18,318 nt of DNA from Tubiluchus corallicola (lineage: Eukaryota > Animalia > Priapulida), in contig JAQGDQ010001998.1 of assembly GCA_030141605.1 (NCBI GenBank), forward strand, positions 1-18,318, in the 5' to 3' direction. Position numbers and translations under genes: made by a program. Below are positions 1,978-17,732 of this stretch, piece by piece (positions within the stretch are counted from its first letter, which is position 1; each line of letters opens with the position of its first letter). The notes under the pieces were generated by a model, which saw only the letters and a program-made list of their open reading frames with translations, did not search any database and was not told where the DNA came from.

Positions 1978-2548
1978 TTGCTAAACATGTGACTCGTGCA
2001 TTAGTACTGTCAATACTTCATCATTTCTATGGTTTCCACGGTGCAACACAAAACTATCACCAAGTTTCTGATCACTACATTGACATGGTGCAACACAAAA
2101 CTATCACCAAGTTTCTGATCACCACATTGACATGGTGCAACACAAAACTATCACCAAGTTTCTGATCACCACATTGACACGGTGCAACACAAAACTATCA
2201 CCAAGTTTCTGATCACCACATTGACAACATGCAACCAGTTTCGTCCTGTTTAGAACAATGTGGTGATCAGAAACTTGGTGATAGTTTTGTGCTGCACCGT
2301 GTCAATGTGGTGATCAGAAACTTGGTGAAAGTTTTGTGCTGCACCGTGTCAATGTGGTGATCAGAAACTTGGTGATAGTTTTGTGCTGCACCATGTCAAT
2401 GTGGTGATCAGAAACTTGGTGAAAGTTTTGTGCTGCACCATGTCAATGTGGTGATCAGAAATTTGGTGATAGTTTTCTGCTGCACCGTGGTAAACATAGA
2501 AATAATAAAGTACTGACAGTACTACTGCACGAGTCACGTGTTTAGCAA
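1978..2548. mobile_element. Foldback-like long inverted repeat with internal 47-bp tandem arrays (4 units left arm, 5 units right arm, ~32-bp spacer)
   Basis: TTGCTAAACATGTGACTCGTGCA... at 1978 is mirrored by ...TGCACGAGTCACGTGTTTAGCAA ending at 2548, with 7 differences over the outer 68 bp. Unit CA(T/C)GGTGCAACACAAAACTATCACCAAGTTTCTGATCACCACATTGA repeats at ~2037-2223 and inverted at 2256-2489. No TSD found, so the transposon identity is inferred; the inverted structure itself is certain. Confidence 0.7.
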
Positions 2549-3291: not shown

Positions 3292-3971
3292 TACATACAA
3301 AACGTGCACGTAATAAGACCGATGCCCTCTCTTTGTTGCCGCGAGGTTTTTTTGTACTAACAATTTACGTTGTACTAACAATCTAGGTTAACATACATAA
3401 AAATTAGCTCGTAATAAGACCGATGCCACTCTTTGTTGTCGCTAGGTATTTTTGTACTAACAATCTAAGTTGTACTAACAATCTAGATTAACATACATAA
3501 AAATTTGCTCGTAATAAGACCGATGCCACTCTTTGTTGTCGCTAGGTATTTTTGTACTAACAATTTAAGTTGTACTAACAATCTAGATTAACATACATAA
3601 AAATTTGCGCGTAATAAGACCAATGCTCTCTCTTTCTTGTCACTAGGTGTTTTTGTATTAACAATTTACGTTGTACTAACAATCTAGATTAACATACATA
3701 AAAATTTGCGCGTAATAAGACCGATGCCCTCTCTTTCTTGTCACTAGGTGTTTTTGTACTAACAATTTACGTTGTACTAACAATCTAGGTTAACATACAT
3801 AAAAATTTGGACGTAATAAGACCGATGTCCTCTCTTTGTTGTCGCTAGGTATTTTTGTACTAACAATTTAAGTTGTACTAACAATCTAGGTTAACATACA
3901 TAAAAAAATAGCACGTAATAAGACCGATGCCCTCTCTTTGTCGTCGCTAGGTATTTTTGTACTAACAATCT
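3292..3971. repeat. Tandem repeat, 100-102 bp unit, ~6.6 copies
   Basis: GTAATAAGACC recurs at 3310, 3411, 3511, 3611, 3712, 3813 and 3915. Each unit has an internal duplicate of TTGTACTAACAAT. Confidence 0.95.
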
Positions 3972-4305: not shown

Positions 4306-4795
4306 TAGCCACGTGGTTACAGAGTACGCTTAGTGACAGAAATAAGCAACACCAGGGTTGGCAGGTGAAAGGATAGGTGGCTGGTAGGTTTAGTACTAAG
4401 TAGCCAGTCACGTGGTTACAAAATACGCTTAGTGACAGAAATAAGCAACACCAGGGTTGGCAAGTGAATGGATAGGTGGCTGGTAGGTTTAGTACTAAGT
4501 AGCCAGTCACGTGGTTACAGAATACGCTTAGTGACAGAAATAAGCAACACCAGGGTTGGCAGGTGAATGGATAGGTGGCTGGTAGGTTTAGTACTAAGTA
4601 GCCAGTCACGTGGTTACAGAATACGCTTAGTGACAGAAATAAGCAACACCACGGTTGGCAGGTGAATGGATAGGTGGCTGGTAGGTTTAGTACTAAGTAG
4701 CCAGTCACGTGGTTACAGAATACGCTTAGTGACAGAAATAAGCAACACCACGGTTGGCAGGTGAATGGATAGGTGGCTGGCAGGTTTAGTACTAA
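4306..4795. repeat. Tandem repeat, 99-bp unit, ~4.9 copies
   Basis: CACGTGGTTACA occurs at 4310, 4409, 4508, 4607 and 4706. The array produces the 33-aa-periodic ORF 4289..4834(-). Confidence 0.95.
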
Positions 4796-5148
4796 TTTTG
4801 AGGGGTTTCCTCTGTTGAACGATGTAATACACATCCGACATGTGGCTAAGGCATCTGTGCCAATTTTCTATTTCAGCTTAGAGTCTGTAACTGTGCCCTG
4901 TTTTGTTTTTCAATGATTTCAACACGAAAAAATCTCGTTTACAAATAAACAACAATGCGTTGATATATATTAGCTATGTTGAAAATTTTAAGTCGTTTAC
5001 GTGTGACGTTCAGCGGCAAACGTGTTTGTTTTCCTCCGTGGGGTAAGTTGCCCCGCGAAGCCTAAAATTTGCGCCAGCTGCAGTATTGAAAGCAGCAGGA
5101 TAATGAGTTGCTTGCAGGCTTCATTGGAGTGTGCAAAACTCAGACGTT

Positions 5149-5704
5149 AGTTTAAACATAATTTATTTAGGATTGGATCAGACAGTTTGTACAACATGAT
5201 TTAGGATCCTCACCATAACAGACTTTATACACTATTTACAAGAACATTTACAGTAAGAATAGACTATACTTAGTTTTTAGTATACTAAAGTTTTACTACA
5301 GTGATACATTAGACATTAGTAGAAAATGACGGTTAGTAAACATTAATGTACGATTATTTAAGAATGATACATTTTATATCAGATAGAAACTACTGGAAGC
5401 GTTTAGTACGTAATTTAAAGTCATGTATACATTGGAATATTTTACAGCTAGTAACATAGTTATATTCATCTTTACCGAATAATAACAACTTCAACAGATC
5501 ATTATTTCCTAAGGCAGCTATATTAAGGTTTTCAGGCAGAAGTATTTCATTTAGTTTATCAAACATAACAACCCTAGTTTGTTGATACAATGGGCAGTGC
5601 AGCAAAAAGTGTTCAACAGACTCAAATCGAAATCCACAGTTACAATTCGGCAATATTGGATGACCGTTATTATCTTTACAGCCTTTAGAGAAAAGGTCAT
5701 AGGT
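5149..5704 (-). mobile_element. 5'-truncated CR1-type non-LTR retrotransposon, copy 1 (ORF2 C-terminus + 3' UTR), 9-bp TSD
   Basis: The minus frame from 5704 reads TYDLFSKGCKDNNGHPILPNCNCGFRFESVEHFLLHCPLY...LLFG...RTKRFQ*, with a C-x-C-x8-H-x4-C knuckle typical of invertebrate LINE ORF2 ends. The 3' end is AATAAATTATGTTTAAACTAA. TCAGACGTT flanks both sides (5140-5148 and 5705-5713). A near-identical copy lies at 16986-17732. Confidence 0.9.
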
Positions 5705-8285: not shown

Positions 8286-8717
8286 TTACTGCATACAGAG
8301 TTTGCGTCGTTAGCAGCAACCCTGTGTAAAACTTGTAAGTTTAAGCTTCCGCGATGACCGTTGGCGCCGCCATTTTGATGGTGCCGTTTTGTAACGTGTT
8401 TAGATAACATTGAGTAAAGTTTGAAAAAATGAACAGGGCATTAATAGCGCAAGGTTCACCAGCTATGCGAAAGTACAGATTAGTTAGTATTGTCAATAAT
8501 ATGATTTTTGTTGAGCCAGTGGTGCACACTGGGATAGTGAAACAGTGACGTTACACTGGGATAGTGAAACAGTGACGTTTGACCAGTTGGCACGAACATT
8601 TTAAATTATTAAGAATTTGAATTTCCTGTTACATAAACAGGTAAGCGTGCTGCTCAGTCATATAACTTTGTATGGAAAATTTTCTGGGGGAATACTGGAA
8701 AATTCCCCTTTCTTTCC
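8286..8717. repeat. Diverged dispersed repeat, copy 1 (direct homolog of ~14653-15049), with an internal 27-bp tandem duplication at 8526-8579
   Basis: Collinear shared blocks include TAAAACTTGTAA, GCGATGACCG, CCATTTTGATGGT, a 41/45 match (8398-8442 vs 14761-14805) and ACGAACA.TTTAAATT. Boundaries are approximate. Confidence 0.85.
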
Positions 8718-8960: not shown

Positions 8961-9445
8961 ACGTATAACATTTCTTACAGTGATATTAAACAAGAAGTAT
9001 TGAAGTGCGTGCTAAAATCAAGGTTATTAATGCAGCAAGTTTCCTGTGAAGTAACATAAAAATGCAGAAAAATTGATATACCAAATTATTAAATTCCAAT
9101 TCAATGTTTAAATCCACAAGAGTTACAATCAGTAATCTCAAGAACTACACAAATTTAATCCCTATTTTACTAGAAATTAACAGCAGGATCTTAAAATAAA
9201 AAGATCCTTTACAAAGTAGGTTAGTGCCGATATTAAATTTTCATTTTTAGTCGAATACACAAGATTTAAACTCTCATTTTCCTGTTCGTTTAGTAATACA
9301 TTTCACCTATATTCGCCTAGTGACACGAAAAAAGGAAAAAACAAAGCAAAGAGCAATAGACTGGGAAAATCAATAAAAATATCTGCATGTGACGAATTAA
9401 GCTTACGTGTGGCGCCATCTTAGGCATCTATATGCAAACTTACAT

Positions 9446-9956
9446 TCTTCTTCTTCTTCTTCTTCTTCTTCTTCCCAGCTTTTCCCTATGCGGGGTCGAC
9501 GTTGTGAATGAGTCTTCTCCACGCATTCCTGTTGTTGACCATCTCTTCATTTATGTCTTCCCTTCCCACATGATCTTCACCGACTCTTCTTTTCAGGTGT
9601 CCATACCATCGCAATCTTGCGAGGCTTCCACTACTTTTACTGTTCCTCTGATATTATTATTTCTAATTTTATCTCTTCTTCTTATTCCCACCATCCATCT
9701 CAACATCCTCATCTCCACCACACCCATTTTCTTCTCTTCGGTCTTCTTTAGAGAAGCTGCTTCCAGTCCATAGATTAGAGCGGGTCTGACCACTTCTTTG
9801 TGGACTTTACCTTTAAGTCTCACCAACTCATTCATAGAAGGTTTTGGCACAGTTTTTACAGGCGGATGCCCTTCCTGACCCTAACCCTCTCTATTTATCC
9901 GGGCTTGGGACCGGTACTGAGTTGGGCTGGCTTGCCCCCCCCCCAGTGGCTAGGTT
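9446..9956 (-). mobile_element. Non-autonomous, internally deleted (bipartite) RTE-clade retroelement with (AAG)n tail and 16-17 bp TSD
   Basis: TSD (T)ATATGCAAACTTACAT at 9429-9445 and 9956-9972; (CTT)n at 9446-9473. Minus-strand peptides VRLKGKVHKEVVRPALIYGLEA...EMRMLRWMVGIRRRDKIRNNNIRG and, after a frameshift, ARLRWYGHLKRR...RNAWRRLIHNVDPA* (stop 9486-9488) are the RTE C-terminus. The RTE 5'-UTR motif CAGGAAGGGCATCCG..TGTAAAAA is joined almost directly to it near 9824. Confidence 0.93.
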
Positions 9957-9957
9957 A
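9879..9957 (-). ncRNA. Twister self-cleaving ribozyme motif (P1-type) at the 5' end of the RTE element
   Basis: The minus strand reads U^AA CCUA GCC ACUGGG...CUCAGU A CCGG UCCCAAGC CCGG AUAAA UAGA GAGGG UUAGGG. The core CCGGUCCCAAGCCCGGAUAAA-N4-GAGGG matches the rice Osa-1-4 twister as I recall it. P2 (CCUA/UAGA, one mismatch), P3 (ACUGGG/CUCAGU) and P4 (CCGG/CCGG) can form. The 5' strand of P1 is replaced by target DNA. Confidence 0.8.
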
Positions 9958-10244
9958 TATGCAAACTTACATAAACCTTAGTAATCTACTTACAATAAAC
10001 TTGTTAGCTCGACCAAACTGTTGCATCATTACTGCATAATAGAAGATATTCTTATTATCGATTAAGTGCCTTTTCTGATGAATGAAGACGACGTTTTCCA
10101 GGTTTGTCTGTGTGTCTGTCCATAGATGAAATAATTAAGGCAAGTTGCTATAGTTTCTCGAAACAAAATGTAATTGAACAAAATGCATGTGTGGTTTCAA
10201 TTGCTGGACTGCAAGCTGTAACGTGACCGTGTTTATGAAAACAA

Positions 10245-11616: not shown

Positions 11617-11914
11617 CACCATACAGCTCCTATGCAGCCTGAAAATATCGAAAATTCGTCATTTTATCATTGACTTCAGCCATTTTGCTGCTTATATAAA
11701 GTTACTCTAGATACAGCTATTAAGCACGTTATTTTAATTCAGACGCCGAAGCTTAAAGTTGGGTTAATAAACAAAAATTTGATACGAATAGATATTCTAC
11801 ATTCGTTTGAATTGCAAGTCTTAAGAGAGGACTAATTTTCTTAAATGTTATTTAGAAAGTTTCGAGATTGTACACTGAATCCCAAGAGGTAAGAGAAGCC
11901 TGTCTACTGTACGA

Positions 11915-12320
11915 TGGGGGTGAGCATCGAACGTTGGAGTTCGATTCGAACGAGTTTTTTTAGTTCGAACTCGATTCGAATCCAAAACTATAGATTCGAA
12001 TAGTGAGCACTTCAATCACATACGTTCTTTATCACTAAAACGATTGAAACATCATGCAATTAGCATAATTTAGCAGTGATTTCTGTGCACAATTTTAAAC
12101 AAATTACTAGTCGTTTTATTGCAGAACAAAATCTAGTGATATGCATGATCTTTGTAAGACAATTTTTTGCTGGTGGTTCGAAAACTTGTTCGAAAATCTT
12201 TCAATCTCAATTCGAATTCGGTTCGAATTCGAAACACCGAAGTTCGGTTCGATTCGAATTCGAAAGTCACAAATTCGGTTCGATTCGAATTCGCTTTCTT
12301 GTAGAGAATGCTCACCCCTA
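11915..12320 (+). mobile_element. Non-autonomous hAT-type DNA transposon (MITE-like), copy A, 406 bp; strand is arbitrary
   Basis: TIR T(G)GGGGTGAGCAT...ATGCTCACCCCTA. The 8-bp flanks CTGTACGA (11907-11914) and CTGTGCGA (12321-12328) match 7/8. TTCGAA/TTCGA motifs are dense near both ends. An 8-bp TSD with TAGGG termini is characteristic of hAT elements. Confidence 0.9.
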
Positions 12321-12698
12321 CTGTGCGAGCAAGCTACCATTGTTAAATTCTGCAGTTCTGTTGTACGTGCAAGAACACACATTCCTACTGTCCGGGCAGC
12401 AACTTTAATGATGCATTCTGAACAATTTTTGCTCGCCTCGAACTTTTCTTCACACGTACATATTTTTTGTGTAAATACATAAGCATCTTAGCACAGCAGC
12501 AGCAGCAGCAACTAATGACCACAGACTCTTGTGGCTCACTAGAAAGCTCTAGGATTCGTCTTGGGTTCAGACGTTCTTGTCACATTCGCTACACATGAAT
12601 TTAACCATCAGTTTTAGTTTTAGATGCCAGACTATTGCTTAAAAACGCTTTCGGTTGCGTGAATTATAGCGACAGGTTTGGAGTCAGCTCCCACCCAC

Positions 12699-13009
12699 GG
12701 TGACAAAATGAAGGATCTATCAGGTCCCAAGGTTACAAACTAAAGGATCTGTCAGGTCCCAAGGTGACAAAATGAAGGATCTGTCAGGTCCCAAGGTTAC
12801 AAAATGAAGGATCTATCAGGTCCCAAGGTTACAAACTAAAGGATCTGTCAGGTCCCAAGGTTACAAAATGAAGGATCTGTCAGGTCCCAAGGTTACAAAA
12901 TGAATGATCTGTCAGGCCCCAAGGTTACAAAATGAAGGATCTGTCAGGTCCCAAGGTTACAAAATGAAGGATCTGTCAGGTCCCAAGGTTACAAAATAAA
13001 GGATCTGTC
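12699..13009. repeat. Minisatellite, 32-bp unit, ~9.7 copies
   Basis: Unit GGTTACAAAATGAAGGATCTGTCAGGTCCCAA, read directly. Confidence 0.97.
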
Positions 13010-13130
13010 TGATGAGTTCAGTCCAAAATTAGATTGGTCTGCATAATCTAAGAAAATTGCTATTGGTCTTTCTTTGAACGATGAAACGTATCAACTAACT
13101 AAACGTGAATTAAGATTCTGATTAGTGACT

Positions 13131-13884
13131 GACTTAGACCTGACGATCTTGACTTAGACCTGACGATCTTGACTTACACCTGACGATCTTGACTCACACC
13201 TGACGATCTTGACTCACACCTGACGATCTTGACTTAGACCTGACGATCTTGACTTACACCTGACGATCTTCACTCACACCTGACGATCTTGACTTACACC
13301 TGACGATCTTGACTCACACCTGACGATCTTGACTTATACCTGACGATCTTGACTTACACCTGACGATCTTGACTCACACCTGACGATCTTGACTCACACC
13401 TGACGATCTTGACTTACACCTGACGATCTTGACTCACGCCTGACGATCTTGACTTACACCTGACGATCTTGACTCACACCTGACGATCTTGACTCACACC
13501 TGACGATCTTGACTCACACCTGACGATCTTGACTTATACCTGACGATCTTGACTTACACCTGACGATCTTGACTTATACCTGACGATCTTGACTCACACC
13601 TGACGATCTTGACTTATACCTGACGATCTTGACTCACTCCTGACGATCTTGACTTAGACCTGACGATCTTGACTTACACCTGACGATCTTGACTCACCTG
13701 ACGATCTTGACTTAACTGACGATCTTGACTCACCTGACGATCTTGACTTATACCTGACGATCTTGACTTACACCTGACGATCTTGACTTACACCTGACGA
13801 TCTTGACTCACACCTGACGATCTTGACTCACACCTGACGATCTTGACTTACACCTGACGATCTTGACTTACACCTGACGATCTT
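13131..13884. repeat. Minisatellite, 20-bp unit, 38 copies (three are 18 bp)
   Basis: Unit GACT(T/C)A(C/G/T)ACCTGACGATCTT, read directly. Confidence 0.98.
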
Positions 13885-14115
13885 GCCTCAGTTTTGACAA
13901 AAGGTAGTGATCATTATTTCTACCTCTGCGGCAAATTTTATGTTTCCTCGCTTCTGCTGTTGGCTAATTTCTGACAACAACGACGATATTTCCTACTTCG
14001 TGGCAAATTTTGCTTTTTTCCAGCATTTGCTGAATCAGTGAGGTCCCTTGATGGCACTCTCTGCTCTCAACGTAATGGACTTCAGCCATGACCTGTTCCT
14101 AGCTGCGCAATAAAC

Positions 14116-14392
14116 CTTTCACAAACACCTTACATTAGAACAAGCCAGACTTTCACAGACACCTTACATTAGAACAAGCCAGACTTTCACAGACACCTTA
14201 CATTAGAACAAGCCAGACTTTCACAGACACCTTACATTAGAACAAGCCAGACTTTCACAGACACCTTACATTAGAACAAGCCAGACTTTCACAGACACCT
14301 TACATTAGAACAAGCCAGACTTTCACAGACACCTTACATTAGAACAAGCCAGACTTTCACAGACACCTTACATTAGAACAAGCCAGACTTTC
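14116..14392. repeat. Minisatellite, 34-bp unit, ~8 almost perfect copies
   Basis: Unit CTTTCACAGACACCTTACATTAGAACAAGCCAGA; only the first copy differs. Confidence 0.98.
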
Positions 14393-14652: not shown

Positions 14653-15049
14653 TTACTTGCAGGGCTTGCATCGGCAGTAACGCTGTATAAAACTTGTAAA
14701 CTCAAACTCCAGCGATGACCGCTAAGCGGACCCATTTTGATGGTAGGTCGTTTGAAACAAGTTTAGATAACATTGCGTGAAGTTTGAAAAAATAAACAGA
14801 GCATTCGTAGTGTACATGTTACCAACTAAGTAAACTTTTAAATTACTGTCTCTTATCAATAAGATTATTTTTGGTTAGTGAGTGGCGCACCCTGGAGGGT
14901 GAGTCAGCGACGTTTTACCACTTGATACGAACACTTTAAATTGTTTCTAGTTACATAAGTCTTTCCAGCAGATAAGCAAAATGCTAAGTAACATAGATTT
15001 GCACGGAAAGTTTTTTGTGGATCATAGTTTAACATTGTCTTTTCTTTCC
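14653..15049. repeat. Diverged dispersed repeat, copy 2 (direct homolog of ~8286-8717)
   Basis: Same collinear blocks as copy 1, without the 27-bp duplication. Boundaries are approximate. Confidence 0.85.
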
Positions 15050-15709: not shown

Positions 15710-16135
15710 GCTAATTGAAACAGAGTAAAAATAACTTAGAAACGATAATATATTTCAGTTTCTATTTAAGAGTTCTGAACTACGTTCTTACAGTTGCTTC
15801 AGTTGATGTAGGTCACAATGATTAATCTGTAGCTGCTAGGAAGGACAGTCGGGGTCTAGAAAAGTCTCAGAGCCACAATGATACCTTTGTAACCCGCTGC
15901 AAATTGCTGGAAACCACTTGAGAAAAGATTTGATTTCCGTTTTAACAGTTGCACACGAAGCCACCACAGTTCTGCGCGAAGCCAGATGCTAAAATGAAGG
16001 GACGTCGTGGCTTCCCGTTACGCACGTGTGAAAGATCTCATTAAAATTCGTAGCATTTTTTGAAGTGAAATATCTAATTGTTACACGAAGCAGGCAGTTA
16101 GCGACCATGCCATCTCTGAATGAATTAGTATACAG

Positions 16136-16556
16136 TAGGGGTGAGCATTCTCTACCAGAAAGCGAATTCGAATCGAACCGAATTTGTGACTTTCGAATTC
16201 GAATCGAACCGAACTTCAGTGTTTCGAATTCGAACCGAATTCGAATTGAGATCGAAAGATTTTCGAACAAGTTTTCGAACCACCAGCAAAAATTAGTCTT
16301 ACAAAGATCATGCATATCACTAGATTTTGTTCTGTTATAAAACGACTAGTAATTTATTTAAAATTGTGTGCAGAAATCACTGCTAAATTATGCTAATTGC
16401 ATGATGTTTCAATCGTTTTAGTGATCAGGAACATGTGTGATTGAAGTGCTGAATTATTCGAATCTATAGTTTTGGATTCGAATCGAGTTCGAACTAAAAA
16501 AACTCGTTCGAATTCGATTCGAACGTTCGAACTCGAAAGTTCGATGCTCACCCCTA
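16136..16556 (-). mobile_element. Non-autonomous hAT-type DNA transposon, copy B, 421 bp, inverted relative to copy A
   Basis: TAGGGGTGAGCAT...ATGCTCACCCCTA. The 8-bp flanks GTATACAG (16128-16135) and GTGTACAG (16557-16564) match 7/8. The interior is the reverse complement of 11915-12320 with ~15 extra bp near one end. Confidence 0.92.
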
Positions 16557-16985
16557 GTGTACAGTGGTGTTTGCAATTCTGTACGGTAATGCTTTTTTTC
16601 AACACCAGGGGGACTGACTTTACAGCAAGTCGTGTTTATGGGTTTCTGAACTTTGCGCCGGCGTATCTCTTTCAAAGAAAACTTTGGAACTTTTATAAAA
16701 AAACGATCTCTAATTTCGCCTCGCGTCTTGTTTACTTCATCGTCGGCTGTAGGGCGCCATAGAAGACGGTAATAATTATCACATTAAGTGCAACGTGGCA
16801 CGCTTAGAAAGTGCGAACTGACGCGCGGCAGGCGCGGCATTGACGTACGTCAACGAGGAATGCAGTTTCGCTTCTGATTTGCAGCTGTATCACAGAACGG
16901 GAGGTGCTCGTAATAAGAGTGCAGTTTTTATCCGCGAGCGTTAACACCAGGAGTAGGGGAGGCACCCGGAGTAAGGGCTTTGAAA

Positions 16986-17732
16986 CTGCCCATTGTATCA
17001 ACTAGCTAGGGTAGTTATGTTTGATAAATTAAATGAAATACTTCTGCCCCAAAACCTTAATATAGCTGCCTTAGGAAATAATGATCTGTTGAAGTTGTTA
17101 TTATTCGGTAAAGATGAATTTAACCATGTTACTAACTGTAAAATACTCCAATGTATACATGACTTTATATTACGTACTAAACGCTTCCAGTAGTTTCTAT
17201 CTGATATAAAATGCATCATTCTTAAATAATCGTACATTAATATTTACTAACCGTCATTTTTTACTAATGTCTAATGTAAAACTTTAGTATACTAAAGTAT
17301 ACTAAAAACTAAGTATAGTCTATTCTTACTGTAAATGTTACTAATGTCTAATGTATTCTTGTAGTAAAACTTGTCAGCTTGTGTAGTTGTAGTCTATTCT
17401 TACTGTAAATGTTACTAATGTCTAATGTAATCTTGTAGTAAAACTTGTCAGCTTGTGTAGTTATAGTCTATTCTTACTGTAAATGTTACTAATGTCTAAT
17501 GTAATCTTGTAGTAAAACTTGTCAGCTTGTGTAGTTGTAGTCTATTCTTACTGTAAATGTTACTAATGTCTAATGTAATCTTGTAGTAAAACTTGTCAGC
17601 TTGTGTAGCTATAGTCTATTCTTACTGTAAATGTTCTTGTAAATAGTGTATAAAGTCTGTTGTGGTGAGGATCCTAAATCATGTTGTACAAACTGTCTGA
17701 TCCAATCCTAAATAAATTATGTTTAAACTAAA
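16986..17732 (+). mobile_element. 5'-truncated CR1-type LINE, copy 2, 10-bp TSD, with a 74-bp array in its 3' UTR
   Basis: Encodes CPLYQLARVVMFDKLNEILL...LLFG...RTKRFQ*, almost identical to copy 1, and ends AATAAATTATGTTTAAACTAAA. GGCTTTGAAA flanks both sides (16976-16985 and 17733-17742). Confidence 0.92.
17316..17635. repeat. Tandem repeat, 74-bp unit, 4.3 copies, inside the CR1 3' UTR
   Basis: TAGTCTATTCTTACTGTAAATGTT occurs at 17316, 17390, 17464, 17538 and 17612. Confidence 0.96.

What the first reader, a model, noticed from the sequence alone, without database searches (positions are those of the whole stretch)
9879..9972. Twister ribozyme whose predicted cleavage site coincides with the 5' junction of an RTE insertion
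Seen: the minus strand has U^AA-CCUA-GCC-[ACUGGG...CUCAGU]-A-CCGG-UCCCAAGC-CCGG-AUAAA-UAGA-GAGGG, and the element/TSD boundary falls at that U^A (9957/9956, with 1 bp of ambiguity). Known: this is the twister core, twisters cut at U^A, they occur at the 5' ends of RTE elements such as Schistosoma Perere-3, and mini-twisters lacking P1 can still cleave. Inferred: the RNA self-cleaved out of a host read-through transcript and was copied in full, so the element needs no promoter of its own. The target site restores a U before the AA, so this copy might still cut minus-strand transcripts. Against activity: an A replaces the usual G before P4 (9915), P2 has a C-A mismatch, and P1 pairing with the flank is poor.
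Basis: partly seen in the sequence, partly recalled or inferred. Interest (0 to 1): 0.82.

Follow-up and report, generated by a model that had tools for sequence, protein, structure and literature searches.

The report
Twister-headed internally deleted RTE retroposon
This is one copy of an abundant 511-base jumping element built from the two ends of a longer RTE retrotransposon; many of its copies begin at the base where the twister-type RNA at its head is predicted to cut itself, so it likely frees itself from longer transcripts, a trick already shown for a blood-fluke retrotransposon.

Summary
Minus-strand 9961-9881 matches Rfam twister-P1 (46.9 bits, E 1.9e-9, below the 67.2 cut-off). Catalytic A and G, both pseudoknots and P4 are intact. 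A 17-bp target-site duplication abuts the predicted U^AA cut. In public-run contigs, unrelated flanks begin at 9956/9957 in four runs from two samples (43 of 103 partly laid records in the deepest run), so the junction is a family trait. First, the element is not a full RTE: it is a 511-base, high-copy, non-autonomous derivative lacking endonuclease and reverse transcriptase, and other copies share the deletion. Cleavage, transcription and promoter-independence are inferred, not shown. The 'restored U' is unremarkable: it occurs at background frequency, and any base is tolerated there. Twister-headed RTEs (Perere-3), bipartite RTE derivatives and ribozyme-headed R2 SIDEs are all published; my searches did not find this combination in print, but this scan has logged it in other genomes. 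A clean, young further example, not a new principle.

The parts
9956..9972 (-). 5' copy of the 17-bp target-site duplication; supplies U(-1) at 9957 and the 5' strand of P1; A9956 is shared with the element
   Evidence: perfect match to 9429-9445
9881..9961 (-). Twister ribozyme (T-variant-like, weak P1). Predicted cut between U9957 and A9956; P2 9954-9951/9893-9890; P3 9948-9915 with a G-run; P4 9914-9911/9902-9899; pseudoknots 9950-9949/9904-9903 and 9909-9906/9888-9885; general base G9889. Private mismatches at 9915 and 9890
   Evidence: family majority letters
9958..9973 (-). Predicted 6-bp hairpin in the host flank, directly upstream of U(-1); would sequester the P1 5' strand in this copy
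   Evidence: (pair probabilities 0.80-0.98)
9836..9880 (-). Remainder of the RTE 5' UTR; shared with a full-length RTE (L001) and a second short element (L002)
9824..9835 (-). AUG at 9835, 45 nt after the ribozyme (49 nt in full-length L001), and the joint of the large internal deletion (about 2.4 kb of coding sequence by comparison with P0007); the AUG opens an 80-codon frame that runs through the RTE fragment
9617..9823 (-). Fragment of the RTE protein C-terminal region, residues 816-884 of the 962-aa APE+RT protein P0007, 77% identical
9486..9620 (-). Last part of the RTE ORF in a second frame (P0007 residues 889-961) with a 30-codon deletion near 9556-9559; stop codon 9488-9486
   Evidence: loose ends carrying the missing part
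9446..9485 (-). 11-nt 3' UTR and (GAA)n tail of ten units (last A, 9445, shared with the duplication)
9429..9445 (-). 3' copy of the target-site duplication

Best explanation
The stretch is the head of a 511-base, high-copy, non-coding derivative of an RTE retrotransposon whose 5' junctions cluster at the predicted cut site of a twister ribozyme, which likely cuts the element's RNA out of a longer transcript so that the protein of an autonomous RTE would copy it into new sites. Steps: (1) a copy is transcribed from an upstream start, most likely host read-through (inferred); (2) the twister folds and cuts at N^AA, leaving a 5'-OH AA end (inferred from fold and from junction position; shown for Perere-3); (3) an autonomous RTE protein binds the retained 3' end and (GAA)n tail and carries out target-primed reverse transcription to the RNA's 5' end (inferred; TSD and tail are shown); (4) each new target supplies a new N(-1) and P1 strand, so every full-length copy rebuilds a ribozyme (shown as anatomy). 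This copy has since gained two helix mismatches and has a flank hairpin next to the cut; I put its own in vitro activity at about even odds, and the family-majority ribozyme's at about 0.9.
For: Rfam match and intact catalytic bases and pseudoknots. 17-bp TSD at the cut. Loose ends with mutually unlike flanks (agreement 0.43-0.63) at 9956/9957: X1 30+13 of 103 partly laid records, expected 1.4 under a uniform null; X3, a separate sample, 11 of 37 at 9956; X4 6 of 21 at 9957; X2 23+12 of 155 over the whole 701-base stretch. Majority letter at 9915 and 9890 restores both pairs in 94-99.8% of depth in all four runs. Summed depth over the element is 4,000-5,000 times that of the flanks and nearly flat in X1 (3'/5' ratio 1.2), and contigs with 7-10 other letters bridge the large joint (table 8, records 4, 14, 21) and the 30-codon joint (records 9, 17), so the short form is itself the family. 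The fragment is 77% identical to a single 962-aa APE+RT protein. A full-length RTE with the same twister core and UTR (L001, 998-aa ORF) and a second deleted element (L002) exist elsewhere. No tRNA head or Pol III boxes. Precedent: PMC8501958.
Against: No cleavage or RNA data. The Rfam score is below the gathering cut-off. All runs are assembled contigs, not reads; junction contigs are a small, filtered subset (46 in X1 against thousands-fold depth), 60 loose-end rows were not shown, and 16 records in X1 and 5 in X3 end at 9944, at the G-run. Depth falls from 7.7e5 at 9915-9921 to 3.0e4 at 9950-9956 in X1; G-run length variation and graph branching can explain this, but real 5' truncation is not excluded. 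X1, X2 and X4 are one sample, possibly the window's source, so there are two samples, not four. No full-length partner was recovered from this genome, only loose ends carrying missing ORF parts. For this copy, nested folding gives P2 a probability of 0.0 and favours a rival helix 9953-9948/9886-9881 (0.7) and the flank hairpin; pseudoknots are not modelled there. In L001 the first A after the cut position is missing and no TSD was found.
Confidence: 0.8

Rival explanations
1. The element carries its own internal Pol II signal. Either transcription starts at the A9956 position and the ribozyme is an inherited relic, or the signal starts transcription a little upstream in the flank and the ribozyme only trims the end. 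In the second form the mechanism of the 5' end is the same, but the reader's 'no promoter needed' is wrong.
For: Internal promoters also give precise 5' ends; some non-LTR elements have them (PMC8501958 introduction; PMC5786205 section 23). About 45 nt of UTR are conserved between the window, L001 and L002 with no assigned role. The family is young, so ribozyme conservation within it shows no selection (only 4 positions outside the private sites vary at 1% or more in 9810-9990).
Against: The junction falls on the exact scissile bond of a fold whose catalytic bases and pseudoknots are all kept, as in Perere-3. No Pol III boxes. A Pol II promoter could not be tested.
Confidence: 0.13
2. This copy is a one-off: a full-length RTE RNA lost its middle by template jumps during this insertion, or by later deletion, and the depth comes from ordinary full-length and 5'-truncated RTE copies.
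For: [quoted passage not shown]
Against: Contigs from other copies bridge both joints, no large loose-end pile lies at 9823-9835 in X1, X2 or X4 among the rows shown, and depth is flat across the joint in X1.
Confidence: 0.03
3. This particular copy has been kept by the host as a working cutter of a minus-strand transcript at this locus.
For: All catalytic and pseudoknot bases are intact; P1 and P2 imperfections are tolerated in large screens (PMC11662667 section 32; PMC5113685).
Against: The copy is only 1.3% from the family majority (6 sites in 475 bases), so it is too young to show constraint, and 2 of the 6 changes break ribozyme pairs (P = 0.25, not significant). An upstream hairpin of the P0 kind lowered average cleavage to 0.40 against 0.85 (PMC11662667 section 33). 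No Pfam exon above cut-off in 49 of the window's 82 ORFs of 55 aa or more.
Confidence: 0.04

Closest known systems
T-variant twister ribozymes at the 5' end of Perere-3 (RTE clade), Schistosoma mansoni; Liu et al. 2021, PMC8501958
   Same: [quoted passage not shown]
   Different: Perere-3 is described with its APE and RT domains; this family has lost both and must borrow them. Different host and tail ((GAA)n, not GTAA). Cleavage was measured there, not here.
R2 SIDEs (short internally deleted elements) of Drosophila; Eickbush and Eickbush 2012, PMC3414825
   Same: About 500 bases, 5' self-cleaving ribozyme plus the 3' end of a LINE, non-autonomous, no Pol III head.
   Different: HDV-like ribozyme, R2/R1 machinery, fixed 28S site and few copies there; twister, RTE machinery, dispersed sites and thousands-fold depth here.
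Bipartite non-autonomous RTE elements (RTESINE1/2, WALLSI3, Bov-A unit); Kojima 2018, PMC5786205
   Same: Only the 5' and 3' parts of an RTE are kept, including the true 5' end.
   Different: The passages read link such 5' ends to HDV-like ribozymes (citing Ruminski 2011), not twister; this element keeps about 340 bases of the ORF end with further small deletions.
Rfam RF03160 type-P1 twister
   Same: All 68 model positions aligned, E 1.9e-9.
   Different: 46.9 bits against a gathering score of 67.2; P1 is 2 of 4 pairs; long G-rich P3.

Membership tests
Twister ribozyme | General acid A(+1), second A and general base G in place | tested here: met
   A9956, A9955, G9889
Twister ribozyme | Two pseudoknots | tested here: met
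   2 of 2 and 3 of 3 Watson-Crick pairs plus A.A
Twister ribozyme | P2 and P4 helices | tested here: met
   P4 4 of 4; P2 3 of 4 in this copy, the fourth pair present in 94-99.5% of family depth
Canonical type-P1 twister (RF03160) | P1 stem and Rfam gathering score | tested here: not met
   P1 2 of 4 pairs; 46.9 bits against 67.2. Filed instead with the weak-P1 T-variants
Twister ribozyme | Site-specific self-cleavage at N^A | not testable with these tools
   Indirect only: junction pile-up at 9956/9957
RTE clade | Parent with one ORF of about 1000 aa, APE then RT | tested here: met
   Closest full-length relative P0007: 962 aa, PF03372 + PF00078; L001 single 998-aa ORF. The element itself lacks both domains
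RTE clade | Very short 3' UTR ending in a simple repeat; TSD | tested here: met
   11 nt + (GAA)10, 17-bp TSD; feature as given in PMC2887409 (passages)
RTE clade | RT domain groups with named RTE elements in a tree | not tested
   No named RTE reference sequences were returned by the tools; the clade call rests on architecture and on my recall of RTE C-terminal motifs
Bipartite non-autonomous LINE / SIDE | Only the two ends of a LINE, coding core lost | tested here: met
   P0007 residues before 816 absent
Bipartite non-autonomous LINE / SIDE | Short form multiplies on its own | tested here: met
   Other copies bridge both joints; flat depth; many distinct flanks
Bipartite non-autonomous LINE / SIDE | No Pol III (tRNA-type) head | tested here: met
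   No tRNA; no A or B box by recalled consensus patterns
Bipartite non-autonomous LINE / SIDE | Autonomous partner in the same genome | tested here: inconclusive
   Loose ends carry ORF parts missing from the element; no whole partner seen, no genome held

The most novel reading that the evidence does not exclude
A young burst of promoterless twister SIDEs has scattered thousands of ready-made RNA cutters through an animal genome. Because any base works before the AA and P1 is dispensable, each sense-oriented copy inside a gene would sever the host pre-mRNA, so the host should select against sense-intronic copies or for ribozyme-breaking changes in them. The two G-to-A changes that break P2 and P3 in this copy would be such a scar, and the family a natural library for reading ribozyme activity against insertion context.
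Probability: 0.15. Interest if true: 0.6.

Novelty: new member of a known kind. Interest (0 to 1): 0.3.

Why it matters
It extends the Perere-3 result (twister cut defines the 5' end of an RTE) to a non-autonomous family in another animal, with base-precise junction evidence from many independent insertions. It supports the suggestion in Kojima 2018 that LINE clades with 5' ribozymes are the ones that spawn two-ended miniature parasites, since such elements need no promoter head. The 511 bases also mark what an RTE template likely needs in cis, which is of some use because RTE proteins are being developed for RNA-templated gene insertion (PMC13708176, passages). Each half of the story is published and the scan has met the combination repeatedly, so a specialist would find it satisfying rather than surprising.

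Tried and rejected
No genome is held for the window, so no copy catalogue or host-gene annotation was possible. No second copy of the element in the window. No RNA holder listed; this says nothing on expression. X5 (same species label) laid 0 records; no conclusion drawn. X6 (RNA by guess) laid one contig on 9883-9914 only, with unlike sequence on both sides: another twister, not this family. Pattern scans: the long twister+UTR pattern gave 2 loci in metagenome contigs and 0 in genome contigs; the short UTR pattern gave 1 viral and 10 prokaryote loci, none of the 11 with the twister loop (Rfam blank on L003), rejected as chance. Folding z-scores are uninformative (-0.1 to -0.5 for the three window stretches) because pseudoknots are not modelled. 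The fragment P0001 alone has no Pfam match. No solved structure named as an RTE protein among 17 hits; best hits are LINE-1 ORF2 and R2. The sigma-70 scan is not relevant to a eukaryote. Selection for U at -1: rejected, frequency equals background. Enrichment of private changes in the ribozyme: not significant. A tRNA-derived SINE: rejected. The thymine stretch ten bases upstream of the TSD described for some RTE-related elements (PMC6007223) is not evident here; the TSD does start with A, as reported for A-rich tails. Literature searches for a twister-headed non-autonomous RTE listed no paper on that combination; the library lacks most subscription journals and Repbase, and I read no supplements (the per-mutant activities of PMC5113685 and the ribozyme lists of PMC11662667 could bear on this copy's activity and on whether this family is already catalogued).

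Full report
Observation. Infernal aligns it to all 68 positions of Rfam twister-P1 with 46.9 bits, E 1.9e-9. This is below the gathering score of 67.2, which is why the whole-window scan found nothing. A direct check of the pairs shows both pseudoknots complete, P4 4 of 4, P2 3 of 4, the outer P3 helix 6 of 7 and P1 2 of 4, with U9957, A9956, A9955 and G9889 at the cut site and catalytic positions. A perfect 17-bp repeat at 9956-9972 and 9429-9445 brackets the insertion. Of six 16-mer pairs 200-2000 bases apart in the window, the other five lie in one minisatellite. A9956 belongs to both the repeat and the element, so the junction is at the predicted cut with one base of ambiguity.

Anatomy. 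The insertion is 511 bases (9956-9446). After the ribozyme come 45 nt of UTR and an AUG at 9835; in the full-length relative L001 the ORF starts 49 nt after the ribozyme. From 9823 the sequence matches residues 816-884 (77%) and, in a second frame, 889-961 with a 30-codon gap, of P0007, a 962-aa protein with endonuclease and reverse-transcriptase domains. All 56 hits are 129 residues or longer by the search setting; those with a species name are crustacean or nematode proteins, one is filed under a bacterial metagenome assembly, and most are unnamed. A stop at 9488-9486, an 11-nt UTR and ten GAA units end the element. One ORF of about 1000 aa and a very short 3' UTR with a simple repeat are the RTE features given in PMC2887409 (passages read); no tree with named RTEs was made. 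Everything encoding the endonuclease and RT is missing, so the element cannot move on its own. The window looks like repeat-rich animal DNA; 49 of its 82 ORFs of 55 aa or more, chosen outside simple repeats, gave no Pfam match above cut-off, so no host gene can be named.

The family. Six public runs were listed, four holding the stretch; X1, X2 and X4 are one sample and may be the window's source, X3 is another sample that lacks the flanks. Laid on 9350-10050, summed contig depth over the element is 4,000-5,000 times that of the flanks in X1. This is not a copy number, but it points to a very abundant repeat. Depth is nearly flat in X1 (3'/5' ratio 1.2), 2.2 in X2 and 15 in X3. Contigs with 7-10 differences from the window bridge the large joint (records 4, 14, 21) and others bridge the 30-codon joint (records 9, 17), and no indel reaches 5% (table 4). 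The short form is therefore the family, not an accident of this copy. Loose ends at 9556, 9559-9561 and 9821 carry, by my reading of their consensus, the ORF parts that the element lacks, so undeleted relatives are present; a whole partner was not seen.

The junction test. In one search (9810-9990), 103 of 1493 records of X1 fit only in part; 30 leave the element after 9956, 13 after 9957 and 3 after 9960, with flanks that agree with each other at only 0.43-0.61. A uniform null expects 1.4 at two given positions. X3 has 11 of 37 at 9956 and 2 at 9958; X4 6 of 21 at 9957; X2 23 and 12 of 155 over the longer stretch. Against this: 16 records in X1 and 5 in X3 end at 9944, at the G-run of P3, whose length varies (table 4); 60 rows were not shown; junction contigs are a small filtered subset; and depth falls about 25-fold between 9915 and 9956. 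I read the fall as an effect of G-run variants and graph branching, but truncation is not excluded. The share of junctions with U before the AA (16 of 46, 12 of 35, 2 of 13) does not differ from the flank frequency of 0.33.

This copy's defects. At 9915 and 9890 the pairing base is carried by 99.8% and 99.5% of depth in X1 and by 94-99.8% in the other three runs. Both mismatches are thus private. They are two of six private substitutions in 475 bases (1.3%); two in the 76-base ribozyme is not significant (P = 0.25). Published screens say P1 is dispensable, P2 mismatches are tolerated, any base works at -1, and pseudoknot or catalytic changes are what kill activity (PMC11662667, abstract and sections 32-34; PMC5113685, whole main text; PMC8501958, section 19). 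That favours residual activity. On the other side, the host flank is predicted to form a 6-bp hairpin ending next to U(-1) (0.80-0.98), and a rival helix takes the P2 strand in the isolated ribozyme (0.7); upstream hairpins lowered average cleavage to 0.40 against 0.85 in PMC11662667 section 33. I put this copy at even odds in vitro. Whether it is transcribed is unknown.

Relatives. The twister+UTR pattern found two loci among metagenome contigs. L001 is a full-length element with the same twister core (40.3 bits), the same UTR motif and a single 998-aa ORF, 43% identical to P0007; its first A after the cut position is absent and no TSD was found. L002 has a decayed twister (41.3 bits) and joins the UTR to the ORF at about residue 725, a second, independent deleted element.

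Mechanism. Shown: fold, TSD, tail, loss of the coding core, abundance, junction pile-up. Inferred: transcription from upstream, self-cleavage to a 5'-OH AA end, copying in trans by an RTE protein. The main rival keeps an element-internal promoter signal; precise ends alone do not exclude it, but their coincidence with the scissile bond of an intact fold argues for cleavage.

What is known. Liu et al. 2021 (PMC8501958; abstract, passages, sections 18 part 1, 19, 22) showed twister variants at the 5' end of Perere-3, cleavage in vitro and in yeast reporters, and TSDs beside the AA. Eickbush and Eickbush 2012 (PMC3414825; passages) described 529-bp R2 SIDEs with self-cleaving HDV-like heads. Kojima 2018 (PMC5786205; passages, section 23) lists bipartite RTE derivatives and links their intact 5' ends to ribozymes. 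PMC6765202, PMC13708176 and PMC6007223 were read as passages (the last also as abstract). Six searches listed no paper on a twister-headed non-autonomous RTE; supplements were not read. Earlier notes of this scan report the same arrangement in seven findings from other genomes; they are unchecked and are not evidence, but they show the pattern recurs. Nothing was noted near this place or by sequence.

Verdict. Real, well supported, and a further member of a known kind; the copy is unusually young and intact, which makes it a convenient test case. Interest 0.3.

Noticed in passing
window 9913 and 9900: The only ribozyme positions (besides the two private sites) with variants at 1% or more are the two partners of one P4 pair, each about 1.6% of depth in X1. 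Either a subfamily with a compensatory change or CpG-type decay; phase unknown, and the shares differ in X3 and X4.
   Followed up: partly
window 9957 (first flank base of other copies): The consensus first flank letter after 9956 is C or G on the plus strand in X1, X2 and X3, not T, although flanks are AT-rich. May mean that target A's are absorbed as microhomology with the element's AA, as at this copy; three consensus letters are weak evidence.
   Followed up: no
window 9835-9596, minus strand: An AUG in the position of the parent's likely start codon opens an 80-codon frame joined in frame to the RTE C-terminal fragment. One in three deletions would be in frame by chance.
   Followed up: partly
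L002 825-1332, plus strand: A second twister-headed, internally deleted RTE with a different breakpoint (ORF resumes near residue 725 of P0007), decayed.
   Followed up: partly
L001 3297-177, minus strand: Full-length RTE with twister head and an open 998-aa ORF in a metagenome contig; the twister lacks the first A after the cut position, like the 1A variants of Perere-3.
   Followed up: partly
window 9883-9914 (run X6, record 25): A 421-base contig of a run guessed to be RNA holds a twister core with 2 differences and unlike sequence on both sides: a different twister-bearing element.
   Followed up: no
window 9494-9541 against 9806-9901 (run X3): In sample X3 the 3' end is 15 times deeper than the 5' part, against 1.2 in X1: other RTE families or 5'-truncated copies dominate there.
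   Followed up: no
window 2040-2226 and 2256-2489: Two arrays of a 47-base unit that are reverse complements of each other, 30 bases apart: a fold-back-like palindrome.
   Followed up: no
window 11906-12324 and 16132-16565: Two copies of a 430-base dispersed repeat in opposite orientation, 92% identical, with a 31-base internal tandem unit.
   Followed up: no
window 5147-5598 and 16985-17731: Inverted copies of a repeat (94% over 356 bases, 90% over 175) overlapping a 104-aa Cys/His-rich frame at 5390-5704 that recalls a LINE C-terminus (from memory; no Pfam match).
   Followed up: partly
window 8296-8552 and 14660-14914: Old direct repeat pair, 74% identical.
   Followed up: no
window 3292-3969, 4310-4795, 12694-14392, 17314-17635: Several long minisatellites with units of 101, 99, 32, 20, 34 and 74 bases.
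   Followed up: no
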